From a virus (taxonomy: Duplodnaviria; Caudoviricetes), in IMG/VR virus record IMGVR_UViG_2908369612_000002, positions 76,744 to 140,743 of that record: a stretch of DNA of 64,000 nucleotides. One strand, written 5' to 3'. Shown piece by piece: positions 1-47,657 of the stretch; positions within the stretch are counted from its first letter, which is position 1, and each line of letters starts with the position of its first letter. A program made the position numbers and the translations under genes. The notes below the pieces were generated by a model. It did not search any database, was not told the origin of the DNA, and saw only the letters and a list, made by a program, of their open reading frames with translations.

Positions 1-1143
1 ATTGAACATACAGACGGCTGCGGCATGATTCTTCCAAGCCTAAGCCGTAAAAGTTTTATGGTCAGGCTCCCTTGGGTCAAAGGATTGTTAGTCCCGTTTG
101 ATTTTCGTAAGTTTGCTGAAGAAAACAATTCATGTAAAGTAACAGACGTTTACGGGAAGGAATGGGACATTGTAAATGATGATATTCAAGTAATCTTCAC
201 TAAGAGTCAGTTCAAGATGTGGAAGTATTATTCTTCATGGGAAGAATATCAGGATAAATATAAAAAATACGGATGTTTAGGGGCAAAACTTAACGAAGAA
301 GACCCTTCTGTTGAAGGAAAGCTGACATATCAAATGCTACAAACATTAACTGATATCACAGAGGAAGAGCTAAAACAAATCAGTGATCAAACAGTTAATG
401 AAATTACTACATTGGGCACTGATAAGGAAACCATGATGAGAGTTTTAGGGGCTACAGAGAAGAATAAAAATAAGACAGCTCTTCAGGAGGCACTTCTCTT
501 ATACCCAGAGTTACTAAACGATGATCACACGAAAGAAATCATCAAGAACAAAAAGAAAAGCATGATTAAGGATGCTAAATCAGGAAAACTACTCGTAGGC
601 GGTGCTCGATACACCTATTTATGCCCTGATCTATATGCTTTTTGTGAAAAATTGTTCCTGAATATTGAAAATCCGAAGGGTTTACTATCAGGTAGCGATG
701 TCTATTGCTCTTTATACAATGAAGGTCATATTGATATCCTCCGCTCCCCTCACCTATACAGAGAACACGGAGTAAGATTGAACAAAAAAGACAAGGAAAA
801 AGAAAAGTGGTTTATTACACCTGGCGTATACACCAGCATTCATGACCCAATATCTAAGCTTTTGCAGTTTGACAATGACGGTGATAAGGCTCTAATTATT
901 TCTGATGAGTTAATCGTTAATATTGCCAAGCGCAATATGGATGACATCGTTCCCTTGTATTATGAAATGTCAGTAGCCCAGAAACAAGAGATAAATAGCA
1001 AGAACATTTATGAAGCTCTGACCCTTGCTTATGGCATCAATATTGGAGAATACAGTAACAACATCACTAAGATATGGAACAGTGACAATATAAACTTAGA
1101 TGTGATCAAGTGGCTATGCATGGAAAACAACTTCACTATCGAT
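1..1143 (+). CDS. yonO: Phage single-subunit RNA polymerase YonO, exon 1 (starts upstream of window)
   Basis: Frame open from position 1 ([10 protein letters not shown]); LRSPHL and catalytic DNDGD motifs of the double-psi beta-barrel polymerase family; ends ...NNFTID at the intron. Confidence 0.92.
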
Positions 1144-2433
1144 TAAATTTATAGTCGCGTCGCATAGCGATATGCGGATGAAAAGTCAGTGAACCTAGAA
1201 ATCTAGGGTGTGCATTCAGCGAAAAGTAGCGATAGGAAATGATCGTCAATGAGTGTGCTAACAGGGGAATTCTAACTAATACATTTTACATTTTGAACAA
1301 TGATATTTAAAACAAGGGGGTGACAAAGTGAAGTTTATAAATGAAGATGAGCTTAAATATTTGAGTGGTATATATAAGATTGAGCAGATAAGCACCGGCT
1401 TAATATATGTGGGGAAAACTAAGATGAAGTTTATTAAGCGTTACTGGCATCACACATGGAAGCTGAAAAACAATTCGCACTGTAATCGACATTTGCAGAA
1501 TGCTTGGAATAAATATGGAGAAAACGATTTCCAATTTCATGTTTTGCAAACAGTTGATCCAAACTCAGATATGAACGAAATAGAAACTCACTACATAAAT
1601 GAACTAGAGGCCTATTTAAATGGCTTTAACATGACCACCGGCGGAGAGGGCAAGAGTAATTGTAAGATGTCTGACTATACCAAAAAGATTATTGGCAAAA
1701 AGAATAGGATTAATAACATCGGAAGAAAGCTTAGTGATGAGACTAAAGCCAAAATGAGTAAAGCGAGAATTGGCAGAAAGCTCTCTCCGCAGCATAAGGA
1801 AAAGCTTTTACAATCTAGAATGAATAAAAGGCATTCGCCAGAATCTAGATTAAAGATGCGTCAGTCTCATTTAGGGTCAAAAAATAAATCCTCAAAAATA
1901 AATGAAACGAAAGCACATGAGATAAAAGTTCGATTGATTAATGGGGAAAAGATGTCTGAAGTATCAAAGTCAATGCGTGTTTCCTACCCCATCGTTAAAT
2001 CAATATTAGAGTGTAAAGTATGGAATCATATTCATGTTACTGGGTGGGACGGCTTTATTCTTAAATACAATAGCAAGAAGAAAAGCACTCTTACTCCAGA
2101 AGAAGTACTTCGTATAAGAAAACTTCTTAAAAAAGGGTTATCAGCACCCCATGTGGCAAAAATGTGTAACATAAAACCCAATGTTGTTTATGGAATTAAA
2201 CAAGGAAGAACCTATAAAAATGTGAAATGAATGTAGAATGTATTATATGAAAATCCTGTGCCAAGCGTTTACATCATGCTGGGAAGCACTTGTAAATGAA
2301 GGTGCAACGACCATCCTTTATGGAGTAATAATAAGGTGAAATTCCTTATTATGAAGCGCTGACCATCTGTCTAGCACAGATGATGATATGGTCTATTCCC
2401 TAATAAAATATCGGGAAACCGAGGGTATCAAAG
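1144..2433 (+). mobile_element. Group I intron in yonO (1290 nt)
   Basis: Exon ends in U, intron ends in G; P1 CGAU|UA..UAGUCG with U-G wobble; core elements GCTAACAGGGGAA, AATCCTGTGCCAAG, GAAGGTGCAACGAC, GATATGGTCT; splicing restores [12 protein letters not shown]. Confidence 0.92.
1328..2230 (+). CDS. Intron-encoded GIY-YIG homing endonuclease with NUMOD3 repeats
   Basis: GIYKI...IYVG motif; NUMOD3-like GRKLSDETKAKMS, GRKLSPQHKEKL, KRHSPESRLKMR; RBS AAGGGGGTGA. Confidence 0.92.
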   Translation: MKFINEDELKYLSGIYKIEQISTGLIYVGKTKMKFIKRYWHHTWKLKNNSHCNRHLQNAWNKYGENDFQFHVLQTVDPNSDMNEIETHYINELEAYLNGFNMTTGGEGKSNCKMSDYTKKIIGKKNRINNIGRKLSDETKAKMSKARIGRKLSPQHKEKLLQSRMNKRHSPESRLKMRQSHLGSKNKSSKINETKAHEIKVRLINGEKMSEVSKSMRVSYPIVKSILECKVWNHIHVTGWDGFILKYNSKKKSTLTPEEVLRIRKLLKKGLSAPHVAKMCNIKPNVVYGIKQGRTYKNVK

Positions 2434-3087
2434 TTCGCAAAAACCTTATTCATGCCTACTCGTCCTAATCATGTTGATGAGAAAATCAAAGATTACATAA
2501 AAAACAAAGTTCCCCACTTCTTCATTAATGCAAAGGATAAGGAAGATCACAGCGTTGAGCCGGTCAATGAAAGCACCGTAAACAAATTGGATTCACTTAT
2601 CCCTTCTGACAGAATTAATTTTGCTGCAGTTGCCGGGAAATTTGATTACCGTTTCTTACTTAAAAACAAAGAGATTAAACTCGATGAAGCTATTATAAAT
2701 GAATATATACGGCTTGATCGGAACAAGAAATGGATTATGAACGATGAAGATGTTAAACCTGGACAAAAACTTTATGTCTATAAGATTATCAAAGAAAGAT
2801 TGTTGAATGTACATAATGATGAACAATACGTTGCAGATGTTTTAGTAAAGCATCTGTATAAGAAGAAAAGCAAATTTAAATCGACTTTGTGGGAGTGCTT
2901 TGGAGAAAGAATTCTGCTTAACTTAGAATACAATTTCAAGCAGTTTAAAAAATGTACTGGATGCGGGAAATTATTTAAAGCTTCAACAAATAGACAGAAA
3001 AAATGCACAGATTGCTCCAAAATTGAGAGAAGGAAATACCAAAAAAACTTAATGCGAAGAAAAAGAAAAGAAACTGTTAGCATTTAG
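2434..3087 (+). CDS. yonO: YonO exon 2 with C-terminal Zn ribbon
   Basis: In frame after the intron terminal G ([11 protein letters not shown]...); CTGC...CTDC near the C-terminus. Confidence 0.9.
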
Positions 3088-3338
3088 AAAGTGTTTTGAG
3101 TCTTACTCTCCCAAGGGATACAGCGATTTTACCGAAAAAAGTTTAGTAAAAAAAGTGCCTTAATCCCTTGATATGACTGGGCTGACTGCCATTTTAGAGA
3201 TAATCGTCATAAGGGAGAAAGAAAGCTAATTTCCACATAAAAGGGTGAGTAAGTCTCCCATTTTTAAAAAAAGTACAAACGTTTCCGTAATCATACTTTA
3301 ACACAAAAATAAACAAAATCACTAGGAGGAATTTAAAC

Positions 3339-3614
3339 ATGACCAAAACAGAATTTGTTGGAGAAGTTGCAGAAAAATTAGGAGTTACTAAGAAAGAAGC
3401 TGCACCTAAAGTGGAAGCAGTATTTAATGTGGTCGTTGAAACACTAACAAAAGGTGAATCAATCAAGATTCCTGGAGTTGGAACGTTTGAAGTTCGTGAA
3501 CGTGCAGCTCGTAAAGGGAGAAATCCACAAACGGGTGAGGAAATTGATATTCCGGCTACAAAGGCACCTGCATTCAAGGCTGCTAAAGCTCTAAAAGACG
3601 CAGTGAAAGCTTAA
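3339..3614 (+). CDS. yonN: HU-like DNA-binding protein
   Basis: GTFEVRERAARKGRNPQTGEEIDIPA HU signature; RBS AGGAGG. Confidence 0.95.
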   Translation: MTKTEFVGEVAEKLGVTKKEAAPKVEAVFNVVVETLTKGESIKIPGVGTFEVRERAARKGRNPQTGEEIDIPATKAPAFKAAKALKDAVKA

Positions 3615-3642
3615 TAAAGTATCCTTCCTCCCTTTTTCCCTA

Positions 3643-3781
3643 GAATGCGGTGGCGAAAAAGGTAAACGCGTAGATCGAGGTGGTATGACTGACCTTCGGG
3701 AATCTCGAGGCCAACCTTCAAGAGAAGACTAATAGTTGGCGAATTGTCATCCATGAGAGGTGCAAATCCTCTCCCGCATTC
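3643..3781 (+). ncRNA. tRNA-like RNA with an enlarged anticodon domain
   Basis: 8-bp acceptor stem GAATGCGG/CCGCATTC; D-arm-like TGGCGAAAAAGGTAAACGC; T-arm-like GAGAGGTGCAAATCCTCTC; about 85-nt structured middle region. Confidence 0.65.
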
Positions 3782-4482
3782 ATCTCCAGGTTAATTAATT
3801 AGAGTTCTTTTATTGATGGCATGGGGGTGTCGTCAATAATAAGCTGTTTACTGATATGTGGGATATCAGTTCTCGGCTAATATTCATTTATTTGAGGACT
3901 TGGAATGCCAGGGATTCGAATAAATGAATATTAGCGGGGTATGCCCCTTCGTGGATTAAGCTTTTTCTAAACATGTCTATTCTCACTTAATGCGGTGTAT
4001 TGCTTCGGCTTACACTTATGTAAGGCAAAATGCGTCTTCCTTCCCTTTAAATAATGCCCTTGTAAGCAGTGATGCTTACCATGCGGTCATCAAAACTTTT
4101 TCCGGGTTAGCGAGGCTTTTTGTAATTACATACCCTCGTAAAATAAGTGAAATGGTTTTTGGGCGCTTGATCACCGCTCCCATTTCATGGAACAGGTTTA
4201 TACCGGTCTTGCCTTTTCAATTTCACTAATAAACACATTCACTATTTTATTCGCTACGTCTCTTTCAATGTTCTGAACGGAGACTCACCTTTCCCATGCA
4301 CATACCTCCTTACACGGGTCAGAGAAAACTGTGCAAAATAAATGGCGAGCGTTTGAGACGCTTTGTTTCTCAATAAGGCGTGTAACCTAACAAGAGCATT
4401 AAAAAATGCCATTGAGAAGGCTTATTAGGGTCTTTCCTTTTCAAGTTATTTTTTCTTGACTCTCGGACTTTAAGGGTGAGCA

Positions 4483-4562
4483 GTTGGCAAGCAACATAAA
4501 AACTTGATACATTTTCCGGACTACGAGAGCTGGACGTTGGCGAGCAACATAAAAACTTGATA
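4483..4562 (+). repeat. 27-nt direct repeat GTTGGCRAGCAACATAAAAACTTGATA, two copies (partial third at 4571)
   Basis: Copies at 4483-4509 and 4536-4562, one mismatch. Confidence 0.9.
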
Positions 4563-5136
4563 TATAAGATGTTGGCAATAGGAACTTTAAACACATTCCA
4601 GAAAGTGTGTATTATTTGTTGTCATAGCTCATCTGCCAGGTGTAGAAGGAGAATCCGGTTTTCGCACAGCGATTACCGGTTTTTATGCTCATGTACCATG
4701 AAGTACAAGGAGTTCCTGAAGATGTCATTATGACGTCTTTTGTTATTTTCGCCTTACTTATAGTTTGTCGACTACAAAGGTTTCAGTCGCTGAACCCGTA
4801 ATCAGCGTATTCCCTGTCGATCTGAAGGCTTGCGTCCCTACGTGAGCTACTGATGTAGGTGAGATGGGGTTAGAATGTAATCAGAACAAGGCCATCTAAA
4901 TCGTTAGAAGGTCTTTTTGTGCTTGCGTTTTACTTTATGAATCAGCCGGAATGTGCTTACGAGCCTTCCGGTACGCAAGTTATCAATAGTCTCCTTCGGG
5001 CGTTTCCCCAACGCCTATCCGACTTATCTTTTCATCTCCTTTATATCCCCTTTTCGGACGTTACCGATGCTTCGGATCATCGGGCTTCCGAAGGAGCTTA
5101 TTGAACGTAAATAAAACACATATTGGAGGAATTTAA

Positions 5137-47050: not shown

Positions 47051-47402
47051 AACGCCCAGTACTTTATTAAGCTGGGCCCTGTTTCATATTTAAATTGAAT
47101 TTTTATAAGCATTAATAGCTTCGTTTCGCAACAGCATATTATTTTTGTTAACCATGCCTAAATTGTAAGCTTTTTTGATAAGCATCTTTTCCATTTTTAC
47201 ACATGTTAAGTATCGACAATCACTCAAATGATTTAATAAGAATACAAAAAAGAACCTGCAAATTGCAAGTTCTTTTCACGTTGGCAATTTATTTCGTTTT
47301 TGTAACGACAGGTTCATTACTCTGTTGTATAATATTTCCTGTACATTAAGTTTGCTCACTCAAGGGAGTCTTGCTCATCCCCTAAGGAAAGGGGGTGATG
47401 CT

Positions 47403-47486
47403 ATGTCAACATTCCAGGCATTAATGTTAATGCTTGCATTCGGGTCTTTTATAATCGCCCTGTTGACGTATATAAATAAAAAATAG
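47403..47486 (+). CDS. Type I toxin, BsrE/BsrH family (27 aa, not in the ORF track)
   Basis: MSTFQALMLMLAFGSFIIALLTYINKK; RBS GGGGGTGA; TATAAT at 47328; terminator at about 47571-47608. Confidence 0.9.
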   Translation: MSTFQALMLMLAFGSFIIALLTYINKK

Positions 47487-47657
47487 ACCTCCCTTGAGCC
47501 TCAGAACCTGAAGGGTTAGGTCTACCTAGAAACCACATCGAGCAAGCCCCCTGAGGGCAGCTTTTTGTACAGAGCCGGGGTGTTGGCGCACCTCGGTCTT
47601 TTTATTTTATGCACTCCAATTAAACAAATGCTCAAATAATTATATAATTGTATCATT
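47480..47657 (-). ncRNA. Putative antisense antitoxin RNA (SR5-like); ends approximate
   Basis: Convergent sigma-A promoter TTGCAA-N18-TATAAT (47693-47664) overlapping the toxin 3' UTR. Confidence 0.65.

What the first reader, a model, noticed from the sequence alone, without database searches (positions are those of the whole stretch)
1144..2433. Mobile group I intron interrupts the phage RNA polymerase YonO
Seen: yonO stops at TAA 1144 and resumes after G2433, restoring IDFAKT. P1 with a U-G wobble and group I core elements are present. The GIY-YIG/NUMOD3 ORF is looped out by an inverted repeat (TAATACATTTTACATT near 1278 and AATGTAGAATGTATTA near 2230). Known: SPbeta introns are described in its nrdE/nrdF genes, and YonO transcribes the late genes. 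Inference: late gene expression here depends on splicing, and the endonuclease could cut intron-less yonO of competing SPbeta-like phages.
Basis: partly seen in the sequence, partly recalled or inferred. Interest (0 to 1): 0.7.

Follow-up and report, generated by a model that had tools for sequence, protein, structure and literature searches.

The report
Mobile self-splicing intron in phage yonO
The RNA polymerase gene (yonO) of this SPbeta-like Bacillus prophage is interrupted by a 1.3-kb self-splicing group I intron that carries its own DNA-cutting homing enzyme, a well-known kind of selfish element that has not been described for this gene and shows clear traces of recent spread between related phages.

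Summary
yonO stops at TAA 1144-1146 and resumes at 2434. The two halves are exactly colinear with intron-less SPbeta YonO (D625|F626), with no gap or overlap. The 1290-nt insert (1144-2433) has the expected marks of a group I intron:
- a P1 helix with a U1143·G1154 wobble;
- a terminal G2433;
- a core of the P7.1/P7.2 (IA) type, homologous to the SPO1 DNA-polymerase intron family, with strong helix covariation.

The 300-aa ORF (1328-2230) is an I-TevI-like GIY-YIG/NUMOD3 endonuclease.

Rfam RF00028 scores only 19.5 bits against a cut-off of 50. The annotated SPO1 intron also fails (25.4 bits), so this says little.

Mobility is supported. The intron arms are 98-100% identical between phages whose yonO exons are only 76-88% identical. 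The window's exons follow an intron-less lineage except for a donor-like patch from -4 to +15.

The same intron lies unannotated in GenBank: in Goe11, Goe14 and BUCT083, and without its ORF in phi3T and SPR. Splicing and cleavage remain untested. It is a new member of a known kind.

The parts
1..1143 (+). yonO exon 1. Its 5' end is cut by the window edge. It ends ...NNFTID with GAT at 1141-1143.
   Evidence: The frame is open from base 1. It is 89% identical to SPbeta YonO residues 245-625.
1144..2433 (+). Group I intron, 1290 nt. It begins UAA (an in-frame stop) and ends with G2433.
   Evidence: It is inserted relative to intron-less SPbeta. It is homologous to annotated phage introns. Its helices covary.
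1140..1157 (+). P1: 1140-1145 paired with 1152-1157. The 5' splice site follows U1143, which pairs with G1154.
   Evidence: Read from the sequence. An unconstrained fold of the phi3T copy gives the same pairs.
1160..1177 (+). P2 hairpin: 7 pairs, GCGA (GNRA) loop at 1167-1170.
   Evidence: A GNRA-capped hairpin of 6-7 pairs is found at this place in 7 of 9 family members. None was found in CB457P1 or CS01. RNAalifold shows compensatory changes here.
1185..1189 (+). P3, 5' strand (GUCAG). It pairs with 2359-2363.
   Evidence: 5 of 5 Watson-Crick pairs in 9 of 9 introns, with 9 different sequences. With swapped partners, 4 of 72 are fully paired.
1194..1256 (+). Two family-specific hairpins between P3 and J3/4. 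The first is 1194-1198/1203-1207. The second has an outer stem 1212-1218/1250-1256, an inner stem 1229-1233/1242-1246 and the loop AGGAAAUG at 1234-1241.
   Evidence: Fully paired: first hairpin 9 of 9, inner stem 9 of 9, outer stem 8 of 9. The inner and outer stems each show 9 different sequences.
1261..1266 (+). P4, 5' strand (ACAGGG). It pairs with 2254-2259. It is preceded by J3/4 (UAA, overlapping A1261) and followed by P5, 1270-1272/2249-2251.
   Evidence: P4 was located in 8 of the 9 sequences scanned and is identical in all 8, so it neither supports nor argues against pairing. My anchor did not find it in phi3T, whose 3' strand reads CCCUGU (a G-C pair in place of G·U). RNAalifold predicts P4 and P5.
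1277..1292 (+). P5 extension, 5' arm of the 16-bp inverted repeat. The endonuclease ORF lies in its loop.
1328..2230 (+). Homing endonuclease gene: 300 aa, GIY-YIG plus NUMOD3 plus a weak C-terminal HTH. The start is GTG, with GGGGGUG five bases upstream.
   Evidence: Pfam. Residues 13-103 align to the I-TevI catalytic domain, 1MK0/1LN0, E 3e-8. The ORF is intact at 300 aa in 10 of 10 copies read.
2230..2245 (+). P5 extension, 3' arm. It overlaps the last base of the ORF's stop codon.
2254..2303 (+). P4 3' strand (2254-2259) and the P6 region: GCC 2260-2262 with GGU 2301-2303, P6a 2266-2273/2291-2298, and a tip hairpin 2277-2280/2285-2288.
   Evidence: Rfam's alignment places GCCAAG...GAAGGU on P6. 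RNAalifold gives P6a with compensatory changes.
2309..2313 (+). P7, 5' strand (GACCA). It pairs with 2389-2393 (UGGUC), and its G-C pair is the expected guanosine-binding pair.
   Evidence: Paired 5 of 5 in 9 of 9 introns. GACCA/UGGUC in the window and L066 against GACUA/UAGUC in the other 7 is a double change.
2314..2352 (+). P7.1 (2314-2316/2322-2324) and P7.2 (2328-2336/2344-2352, loop UGAAAUU). These are the extra hairpins of subgroup IA.
   Evidence: P7.2 is fully paired in 9 of 9, with 5 different sequences. RNAalifold predicts P7.1 and P7.2 with double changes.
2359..2382 (+). P3 3' strand (2359-2363), then P8 (2364-2370/2376-2382).
   Evidence: P8 closing stems of 3-11 pairs occur in 9 of 9, all of different sequence.
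2383..2433 (+). J8/7 (2383-2388), P7 3' strand (2389-2393), P9 (2398-2400/2423-2425) with a GAAA-capped tip (2411-2414/2419-2422), and the terminal G2433.
   Evidence: GAUGAUAUGGUCU aligns to the Rfam consensus for J8/7-P7. This stretch is 85-92% identical to introns of Staphylococcus, Listeria, Enterococcus and Brochothrix phages.
2434..3087 (+). yonO exon 2 ([11 protein letters not shown]... to the stop codon).
   Evidence: 74% identical to SPbeta YonO residues 626-839.

Best explanation
Bases 1144-2433 are a mobile group I intron of the P7.1/P7.2-bearing IA type. Its ribozyme belongs to the family found in the SPO1 DNA polymerase gene and in nrdD and terminase genes of other Firmicutes phages.

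Inferred mechanism:
- The yonO pre-mRNA folds so that exon bases 1140-1143 pair with the guide sequence 1154-1157.
- A free guanosine attacks after U1143.
- The freed exon then attacks after G2433.
- The two exons join as GAU|UUC, giving full-length YonO.
- The UAA at the first intron codon stops ribosomes before they can enter the ribozyme.

The ORF in the P5 loop encodes an I-TevI-like GIY-YIG endonuclease. When an intron-bearing and an intron-less SPbeta-like genome meet in one cell, the enzyme is expected to cut the intron-less yonO near the insertion site. Repair from the intron-bearing copy would then copy in the intron together with a few flanking exon bases.

Shown here: the anatomy, homology to annotated introns, helix covariation, colinearity with YonO, an intact endonuclease ORF, and population signatures of horizontal spread.

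Inferred only: splicing itself, cleavage activity and the cleavage position, and the dependence of late transcription on splicing.
For: 1. Precise insertion. The exon halves are colinear with SPbeta YonO at D625|F626, and the intron-less allele reads GAT|TTT.

2. Splice-site features. There is a U·G pair in P1 and a terminal G. The terminal G is also present in the divergent same-site introns L029 and L066.

3. Homology to annotated introns, from blastn against 2.3 Gb of phage records.
- The 5' arm matches the intron inside SPO1 gene 31 (E 9e-5; RefSeq note 'contains intron'), SPO1-like phages (7e-6) and Enterocloster phages (4e-9).
- The 3' arm matches the intron of the joined PH15 terminase CDS (5e-15) and phage Perkons (1e-10).
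- A 2025 paper used SPO1 as a control 'with previously confirmed spliced introns' (PMC11878797, passages).

4. Covariation in 9 introns at anchor-defined positions.
- P3 is fully paired in 9 of 9, with 9 different sequences. With swapped partners only 4 of 72 are fully paired.
- The inner stem of the second hairpin is fully paired in 9 of 9, and its outer stem in 8 of 9.
- P7 shows a double change. P7.2 is paired in 9 of 9, with 5 different sequences.
- RNAalifold on 5 ORF-less introns gave 72 pairs, 34 of them with a kept double change.
- The ORF-less phi3T copy folds at z = -5.8; 0 of 100 shuffles fold as well.

5. Endonuclease. It passes the Pfam GIY-YIG and NUMOD3 cut-offs. It aligns to I-TevI with the GIY, YVG, Arg, Glu and Asn positions kept. 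The ORF is open at 300 aa in 10 of 10 copies read.

6. Mobility.
- Against L013 the arms are 98% and 100% identical and the ORF 96%, while the exons are 86% and 76%.
- The window's exons match intron-less L030 at 48-50 of 50 bases per bin, except next to the intron. There, 7 differences from L030 (at -4, -1, +3, +9, +12, +13, +15) all carry the base of the intron-bearing alleles.
- The same +3 to +15 patch separates L041 from its nearest intron-less relative L016.

7. All three states exist at one site.
- Among 41 IMG/VR loci: 7 with intron plus ORF, 3 ORF-less of phi3T type, 3 with a divergent ORF-less intron, and 28 intron-less.
- Among 16 species genomes: 1 with intron plus ORF (Bacillus rugosus), 1 with a divergent ORF-less intron (Neobacillus paridis), and 14 intron-less.
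Against: - Rfam RF00028 does not reach its gathering score: no hit, 19.5 bits against 50, and 19.7 bits for phi3T. The control weakens this objection, since SPO1 scores 25.4, PH15 20.2 and Perkons 38.2, all below 50, while L029 and L066 gave no hit at E <= 1.
- No convincing P10 pairing with the 3' exon was found. The one pairing that the fold proposes is not conserved in L029 or L066.
- The donor-like patch does not reach the exon-1 markers at -10, -16 and -19. As I recall, I-TevI cuts 23-25 bases upstream of its insertion site, and a cut that far upstream would be expected to convert those markers. So either the cut lies closer to the site, or transfer went by ordinary recombination.
- The covariation table rests on my own anchors and 9 sequences, several of them related.
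- No RNA or enzyme data exist.
Confidence: 0.9

Rival explanations
1. Split gene without splicing. The insert is a free-standing endonuclease cassette that divides yonO into two separately translated polypeptides, which assemble into an active polymerase. GenBank annotates it this way, as yonO_1 / hypothetical / yonO_2.
For: The Goe11 and Goe14 records annotate two yonO CDSs, and phi3T two 'similar to yonO' CDSs. An in-frame ATG exists at 2452.
Against: The ORF is flanked by about 390 nt of conserved, covarying ribozyme that a cassette would not need. phi3T, L029 and L066 keep the ribozyme without any ORF. The ATG at 2452 lies 18 bases inside exon 2, would drop conserved residues FAKTLF, and has no Shine-Dalgarno sequence before it. 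The junction is exact to the base.
Confidence: 0.03
2. Decayed element. The intron, its endonuclease, or both no longer work, so yonO here is a pseudogene in a defective prophage, or the intron is now only inherited vertically.
For: Neither activity was tested. ORF-less derivatives (phi3T type, L029, L066) show that the endonuclease gene does decay. The raw codon differences among ORF copies are about half non-synonymous, for example 12 of 23 between the window and L021, which suggests only moderate constraint.
Against: Every core helix is intact in the window and the ORF is open with catalytic positions kept. GenBank records of isolated phages listed with a laboratory host strain carry the same interrupted gene: Goe11, Goe14, BUCT083, phi3T and SPR. 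I have not seen growth data for them. The arms are 98-100% identical across diverged yonO backgrounds, which argues for recent transfer.
Confidence: 0.06

Closest known systems
[quoted passage not shown]
   Same: The ribozyme family is the same. Window 1187-1269 is about 74% identical to the SPO1 intron. Shared features are a GNRA-capped P2, P3, the two hairpins with the AGGAAAUG loop, the P4/P6 sequences, P7, P7.1/P7.2, and an in-frame stop soon after the 5' splice site.
   Different: The host gene differs (DNA polymerase, not yonO). In SPO1 the ORF sits in the P8 loop, not the P5 loop, and is annotated only as a 'putative homing endonuclease' (gp31.2). I recall it as the HNH nicking enzyme I-HmuI. 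The P9 region also differs.
Phage T4 td intron with I-TevI (and, as I recall, the Bacillus mojavensis thyA intron with I-BmoI)
   Same: The endonuclease family and modular build are the same. The N-terminal GIY-YIG domain aligns to I-TevI structures 1MK0/1LN0 at E 3e-8 with catalytic positions kept, and NUMOD3 and HTH-type DNA-binding modules follow it. It is likewise a group I intron in a conserved stretch of an essential phage gene.
   Different: Similarity to I-TevI is confined to a 91-residue stretch of the N-terminal domain. The host gene and target site differ. The short donor-like patch (-4 to +15) does not fit a cut 23-25 bases upstream, which is where I recall I-TevI cutting.
SPbeta bnrdE and bnrdF introns
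   Same: They occur in the same phage group and are of the same kind of element. This very provirus has RF00028 matches of 45.2 and 30.3 bits between nrdE-like ORFs, together with an HNH ORF, outside the window. The review confirms the SPbeta introns (PMC8270828).
   Different: The genes differ, the endonuclease there is HNH, and those introns score much higher on RF00028 than the yonO intron does.
PhiPA3 intron with HNH endonuclease gp210 in a virion RNA polymerase subunit gene (Birkholz et al. 2024, PMC11620839)
   Same: An intron-borne endonuclease inside a phage RNA polymerase gene. In that case it was shown to nick the intron-less homologue of a co-infecting phage and to lower that phage's yield (abstract and section 5 read).
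   Different: The host is a Pseudomonas jumbo phage, the polymerase is multisubunit, and the enzyme is an HNH nickase. No sequence relationship was tested or is claimed. No competition data exist for yonO.

Membership tests
Group I intron | The 5' splice site follows a U that forms a U·G wobble inside P1 with an internal guide sequence. | tested here: met
   U1143·G1154 lies within a 6-pair P1. An unconstrained fold of the phi3T copy gives the same pairs. All 15 SPbeta-like intron-bearing alleles examined keep ATCGAT.
Group I intron | The last intron base is a G. | tested here: met
   G2433. The same holds in phi3T, L029 and L066.
Group I intron | A conserved core of P3-P4-P5-P6-P7-P8-P9, with the P3/P7 pseudoknot and the J8/7-P7 consensus. 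| tested here: met
   The helices were located and covary. J6/7-P7 and J8/7-P7 align to the Rfam consensus.
Group I intron | The Rfam RF00028 gathering score (50 bits). | tested here: not met
   19.5 bits. This is a classifier threshold, not a biological feature. The annotated SPO1 intron scores 25.4 bits and the PH15 intron 20.2 bits, so they fail too.
Group I intron | Removing the intron restores an uninterrupted, colinear host reading frame. | tested here: met
Group I intron | Guanosine-dependent self-splicing. | not testable with these tools
   This needs in vitro transcription with GTP, or RT-PCR.
Group I intron, subgroup IA (phage type) | Extra hairpins P7.1 and P7.2 between P7 and the 3' strand of P3. 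| tested here: met
   2314-2324 and 2328-2352; P7.2 covaries. A review names P7.1/P7.2 among the features used to class group I introns (PMC3984707, passage). That they mark subgroup IA, and the finer label IA2, I recall rather than tested.
GIY-YIG homing endonuclease (I-TevI-like) | A GIY-YIG catalytic domain with the conserved Tyr, Tyr, Arg, Glu and Asn. | tested here: met
   Pfam PF01541, 29.5 bits against a cut-off of 22.6. The alignment to 1MK0/1LN0 keeps GIY, YVG, the Arg that is Ala in 1LN0, the Glu that is Ala in 1MK0, and NG(F/Y)N.
GIY-YIG homing endonuclease (I-TevI-like) | A C-terminal modular DNA-binding region. | tested here: inconclusive
   NUMOD3 passes (31.4 against 20.4). HTH_38 is below its cut-off (22 against 27).
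GIY-YIG homing endonuclease (I-TevI-like) | Site-specific cleavage of the intron-less allele, and homing. | not testable with these tools
   The support is indirect only: the intron is far more conserved than the exons, and donor-like patches flank it.

The most novel reading that the evidence does not exclude
The yonO intron endonuclease acts as a weapon between SPbeta-like phages. On infection or induction it would cut the intron-less yonO of a co-infecting phage, or of a resident SPbeta prophage inside the bacterial chromosome. That would deprive the rival of its late-gene polymerase or force gene conversion, and so shape which SPbeta-like phages can coexist or recombine in one Bacillus lineage. 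The L030/L016-type target, which differs at five of the first 15 exon-2 bases, could be a resistant allele.
Probability: 0.2. Interest if true: 0.7.

Novelty: new member of a known kind. Interest (0 to 1): 0.42.

Why it matters
YonO is the single-subunit RNA polymerase that transcribes the SPbeta late genes (PMC8270828). In a sizeable share of SPbeta-like phages, production of this enzyme therefore probably requires RNA self-splicing. That share was 13 of 41 IMG/VR loci and 16 of 24 GenBank phage records, including the laboratory phages phi3T, SPR, Goe11 and Goe14. The database records instead show two gene fragments.

The practical consequences are these:
- Annotation of yonO_1/yonO_2 and of 'hypothetical protein' entries in these phages can be corrected.
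- B. subtilis gains a tractable natural set for testing intron homing and intron-mediated phage competition: intron with endonuclease, ORF-less intron, and two kinds of intron-less target.
- The work on phi3T-SPbeta hybrid phages can take the element into account.

As a kind of element it is ordinary.

Tried and rejected
- Rfam at gathering score found no intron in the window. Permissive searches gave only sub-threshold RF00028 matches. I kept this as a weak negative after the SPO1 and PH15 controls also failed.
I used pattern scans of the collections instead.
- MAFFT misaligned the 3' strand of P3 in 2 of 5 rows. I therefore did not run the count of structure pairs or build a covariance model. 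I counted pairs at anchor-defined positions by script with a swapped-partner control and ran RNAalifold.
- The fold proposed a P10-like pairing of exon 2 +1 to +6 with 1173-1178. I rejected it because it is not conserved in L029 or L066.
- A promoter and terminator scan of 1000-3400 gave no more sites than shuffles: 10 against a mean of 8.8 for promoters, and 1 against 1.2 for terminators.
- SPbeta YonO has no relative of solved structure by sequence (0 hits). I therefore could not say which structural element the insertion site belongs to.
- Five paper searches found no description of a yonO intron. The Kohm preprint has 0 occurrences of 'intron'.
- The two Lazarevic papers on SPbeta introns are not held.
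- Supplementary Table S1 of PMC11878797 lists known phage introns and could bear on the claim that this one is not in print.
- The scan's own notes held nothing on this genome or on this intron.
Full report
**What is in the sequence**

The window opens inside a gene whose product is 89% identical to residues 245-625 of SPbeta YonO. That frame ends with GAT at 1141-1143 and meets TAA at 1144-1146. Translation from 2434 continues with [11 protein letters not shown]... and is 74% identical to YonO residues 626-839. The two pieces abut on the SPbeta protein with no gap or overlap.

At the DNA level, intron-less SPbeta reads GAT|TTTGCAAAAACC where the window has GAT, then 1290 extra bases, then TTCGCAAAAACC. 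The window belongs to a 140,743-base IMG/VR provirus record. It also carries the SPbeta marker RNA BsrG.

**Is the insert a group I intron?**

- **P1.** Exon bases 1140-1143 and intron bases 1144-1145 pair with 1152-1157, which puts the last exon base U1143 opposite G1154. An unconstrained fold of the ORF-less phi3T copy recovers exactly these pairs. That fold has z = -5.8, and 0 of 100 shuffles fold as well.
- **Terminal base.** The intron ends in G2433.
- **Rfam.** RF00028 does not reach its 50-bit cut-off. There is no hit at gathering score, 19.5 bits in a local search, and 19.7 bits for phi3T. The sub-threshold alignment does place GCCAAG...GAAGGU on P6, CAACGACCA on J6/7-P7 and GAUGAUAUGGUCU on J8/7-P7.
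- **Control for Rfam.** I ran the same search on annotated relatives. The SPO1 gene 31 intron scores 25.4 bits, the PH15 terminase intron 20.2 and Perkons 38.2, all below 50. L029 and L066 gave no hit at E <= 1. The model is therefore insensitive to this phage family, and the failure says little.

**Homology to known introns**

I ran blastn of the two ribozyme arms against 50,697 phage records.

- The 5' arm (window 1187-1269) matches the intron inside SPO1 gene 31. RefSeq notes 'contains intron', and a homing endonuclease ORF is annotated inside it. It also matches SPO1-like phages, Enterocloster phages, and introns next to nrdD fragments in Enterococcus phage EFP01 and Clostridium phage CS01.
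- The 3' arm matches the intron of the joined terminase CDS of Staphylococcus phage PH15, phage Perkons, and introns of many Staphylococcus, Listeria, Enterococcus and Brochothrix phages.
- A 2025 study used SPO1 as a control 'with previously confirmed spliced introns' (PMC11878797, passages). A review lists the original SPO1 self-splicing paper in its references (PMC3984707).

**Structure and covariation**

I extracted helices at positions fixed by invariant anchors from nine introns: the window, two divergent yonO introns, a second-site yonO intron, SPO1, Perkons, CB457P1, EFP01 and CS01. I compared each intron's own strands with swapped partners.

| Helix | Fully paired (own strands) | Different sequences | Fully paired (swapped partners) |
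|---|---|---|---|
| P3 (5 pairs) | 9 of 9 | 9 | 4 of 72 |
| First hairpin after P3 | 9 of 9 | 3 | 1 of 30 |
| Second hairpin, inner stem | 9 of 9 | 9 | 4 of 72 |
| Second hairpin, outer stem | 8 of 9 | 9 | 2 of 72 |
| P7 | 9 of 9 | 2 (GACCA/UGGUC against GACUA/UAGUC, a double change) | 14 of 28 |
| P7.2 | 9 of 9 | 5 | 5 of 52 |

- P4 (ACAGGG/UCCUGU) is identical in the 8 of 9 sequences where my anchor found it. It therefore says nothing either way.
- A GNRA-capped P2 is present in 7 of 9 introns. None was found in CB457P1 or CS01. P8 closing stems of 3-11 pairs are present in 9 of 9, all of different sequence.
- RNAalifold on a MAFFT alignment of five ORF-less introns predicts P2, P3, both hairpins, P4, P5, P6a, P7.1, P7.2, P8 and the P9 tip. 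It gives 72 pairs, 34 with a kept double change. It cannot draw the P7 pseudoknot, and it mispairs those strands.
- P7.1 and P7.2 place the ribozyme in the IA type. The finer label IA2 I recall for SPO1-like introns and did not test.
- The two hairpins between the 5' strand of P3 and J3/4 (1194-1207 and 1212-1256, with the invariant loop AGGAAAUG) are a family trait. I could not check how the literature names them.

**The ORF**

- The ORF at 1328-2230 (GTG start, GGGGGUG five bases upstream) passes the Pfam cut-offs for GIY-YIG and NUMOD3 and has a weak C-terminal HTH.
- Residues 13-103 align to the I-TevI catalytic domain at E 3e-8. The alignment keeps GIY, YVG, the Arg and Glu that are mutated in the two crystal forms, and the NG(F/Y)N motif.
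- Relatives carry their ORFs elsewhere: in the P8 loop in SPO1 and in the P6 loop in EFP01 and CS01. That is the pattern expected when endonuclease genes invade ribozymes independently.
- The ORF is open at 300 aa in 10 of 10 copies read. The Bacillus rugosus copy was not read because my start anchor missed it.

**Distribution**

One degenerate pattern for the last nine exon-1 codons found 41 IMG/VR loci and 16 loci in the species-genome collection. The 57 loci are classified below.

| State at the site | IMG/VR (41) | Species genomes (16) |
|---|---|---|
| Intron with ORF | 7 | 1 (Bacillus rugosus) |
| ORF-less, phi3T type (keeps the last 41 bases of the ORF) | 3 | 0 |
| Divergent ORF-less intron | 3 (367 nt) | 1 (Neobacillus paridis, 495 nt, with ORF remnants) |
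| Intron-less, SPbeta-like | 20 | – |
| Intron-less, more distant | 8 | – |
| Intron-less, not subdivided | – | 14 (Paenibacillus, Cohnella and others) |

In GenBank, 24 phage records matched.

- 7 carry the intron with its ORF: SPbetaL4-L7, Goe11, Goe14 and BUCT083.
- 9 carry the ORF-less form: phi3T and its derivatives, SPR and SPbetaL3.
- 5 match both exons only: Goe12, Goe13, one hybrid, and SPBc2 listed twice.
- 3 match exon 1 only.

None of the four records I opened calls the insert an intron.

**Evidence that it moves**

- The arms are 98-100% identical and the ORF 95-97% identical between the window and phages whose yonO exons are only 76-88% identical.
- The window's exons follow intron-less L030 at 48-50 of 50 bases per bin. 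The exceptions are the first 100 bases of exon 2 (42 and 46 of 50).
- Base by base, 7 differences from L030 lie at -4, -1, +3, +9, +12, +13 and +15, and all carry the base of the intron-bearing alleles. The markers at -10, -16, -19 and +24 stay L030-like.
- Two of the changes restore P1: C at -4 pairs with G1157, and U at -1 pairs with G1154. Both are synonymous.
- The same +3 to +15 patch separates ORF-less L041 from its nearest intron-less relative L016. Position +3 differs in 11 of 11 such pairs.
- This is the pattern of intron transfer with short flanking co-conversion. The review describes co-conversion as a frequent companion of homing (PMC3984707, passage).
- The patch is too short on the exon-1 side for a cut 23-25 bases upstream, which is where I recall I-TevI cutting. 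I therefore predict a cut closer to the site. Transfer by ordinary recombination also stays possible.

**Rival readings**

- **A split gene translated as two proteins**, as GenBank implies, does not explain several things: the conserved ribozyme, the ORF-less forms that keep it, the exact junction, or the lack of a ribosome-binding site before ATG 2452.
- **A dead element** is not excluded by sequence. But the core and the ORF are intact, and isolated phages listed with laboratory hosts carry the same interruption.

**What is known and what is new**

Introns in SPbeta bnrdE and bnrdF are established (PMC8270828). This provirus has such an intron, with an HNH ORF, outside the window.

An intron endonuclease in a phage RNA polymerase gene that harms a co-infecting phage is established for PhiPA3 and PhiKZ (PMC11620839).

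Five full-text searches and passages of two SPbeta papers found no mention of a yonO intron. Three sources that might mention one could not be read: the supplement table of known phage introns in PMC11878797 and the two Lazarevic papers.

I therefore rate this as a new member of a known kind. It is well supported by sequence, useful for annotation and as an experimental system, and not surprising in principle.

Noticed in passing
L060 (Bacillaceae MAG contig, genome contigs), oriented bases about 742-1757: A second intron of the same ribozyme family sits in a yonO homologue at a different site. It lies between ...LQFD and NDGDK, which is inside the DNDGD motif that I recall as the polymerase's metal-binding signature. 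It follows a U, ends in G, and carries a 209-aa HNH_3 ORF (Pfam E 5.5e-8) in the P6 loop. That locus is intron-less at the window's site.
   Followed up: partly
G000:C1:15491-18670 (L005), outside the window: The same provirus has two RF00028 matches (45.2 and 30.3 bits) between ribonucleotide reductase large-subunit ORFs, together with an HNH_3/NUMOD4 ORF. This looks like the counterpart of the SPbeta bnrdE intron.
   Followed up: partly
window 2436 (exon 2, position +3): This base is C in the window and in 11 of 11 other SPbeta-like intron-bearing alleles, and T in 20 of 20 SPbeta-like intron-less alleles. The change is synonymous (TTC against TTT). Hitch-hiking with the intron is the simplest reading. 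A fold-predicted pairing with 1173-1178 is not conserved.
   Followed up: partly
window 1117-1143 plus 2434-2445: The insertion site lies in a motif, CMENNFTID|(F/Y)AKT, that is conserved strongly enough for a 27-base degenerate DNA pattern to find yonO-like genes in Paenibacillus, Cohnella, Neobacillus, and Ruminococcus and Mollicutes MAGs. Its role in the polymerase is unknown to me, and no solved relative was found.
   Followed up: partly
window 1194-1256: Two hairpins lie between the 5' strand of P3 and J3/4. The second has an invariant AGGAAAUG loop (AGUAAAUG in CB457P1, AGGAAAUA in L066) and a conserved asymmetric internal loop. They are shared by all nine family members examined. They are probably a tertiary-contact module, and they may explain the poor RF00028 scores.
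   Followed up: partly
window 3615-5136, including 4808-4873: About 1.5 kb downstream of the HU-like gene (yonN homologue, 3339-3614) there is no ORF over 80 aa. This stretch holds a DUF3800-VIII RNA match above the Rfam cut-off (49.7 against 40.2 bits). In Goe11 the corresponding region gives a sub-threshold skipping-rope RNA match (31.3 against 36.7 bits).
   Followed up: no
window 47342-47596: A full-length BsrG RNA match (217 bits). As I recall, this is the type I toxin-antitoxin RNA of SPbeta.
   Followed up: no
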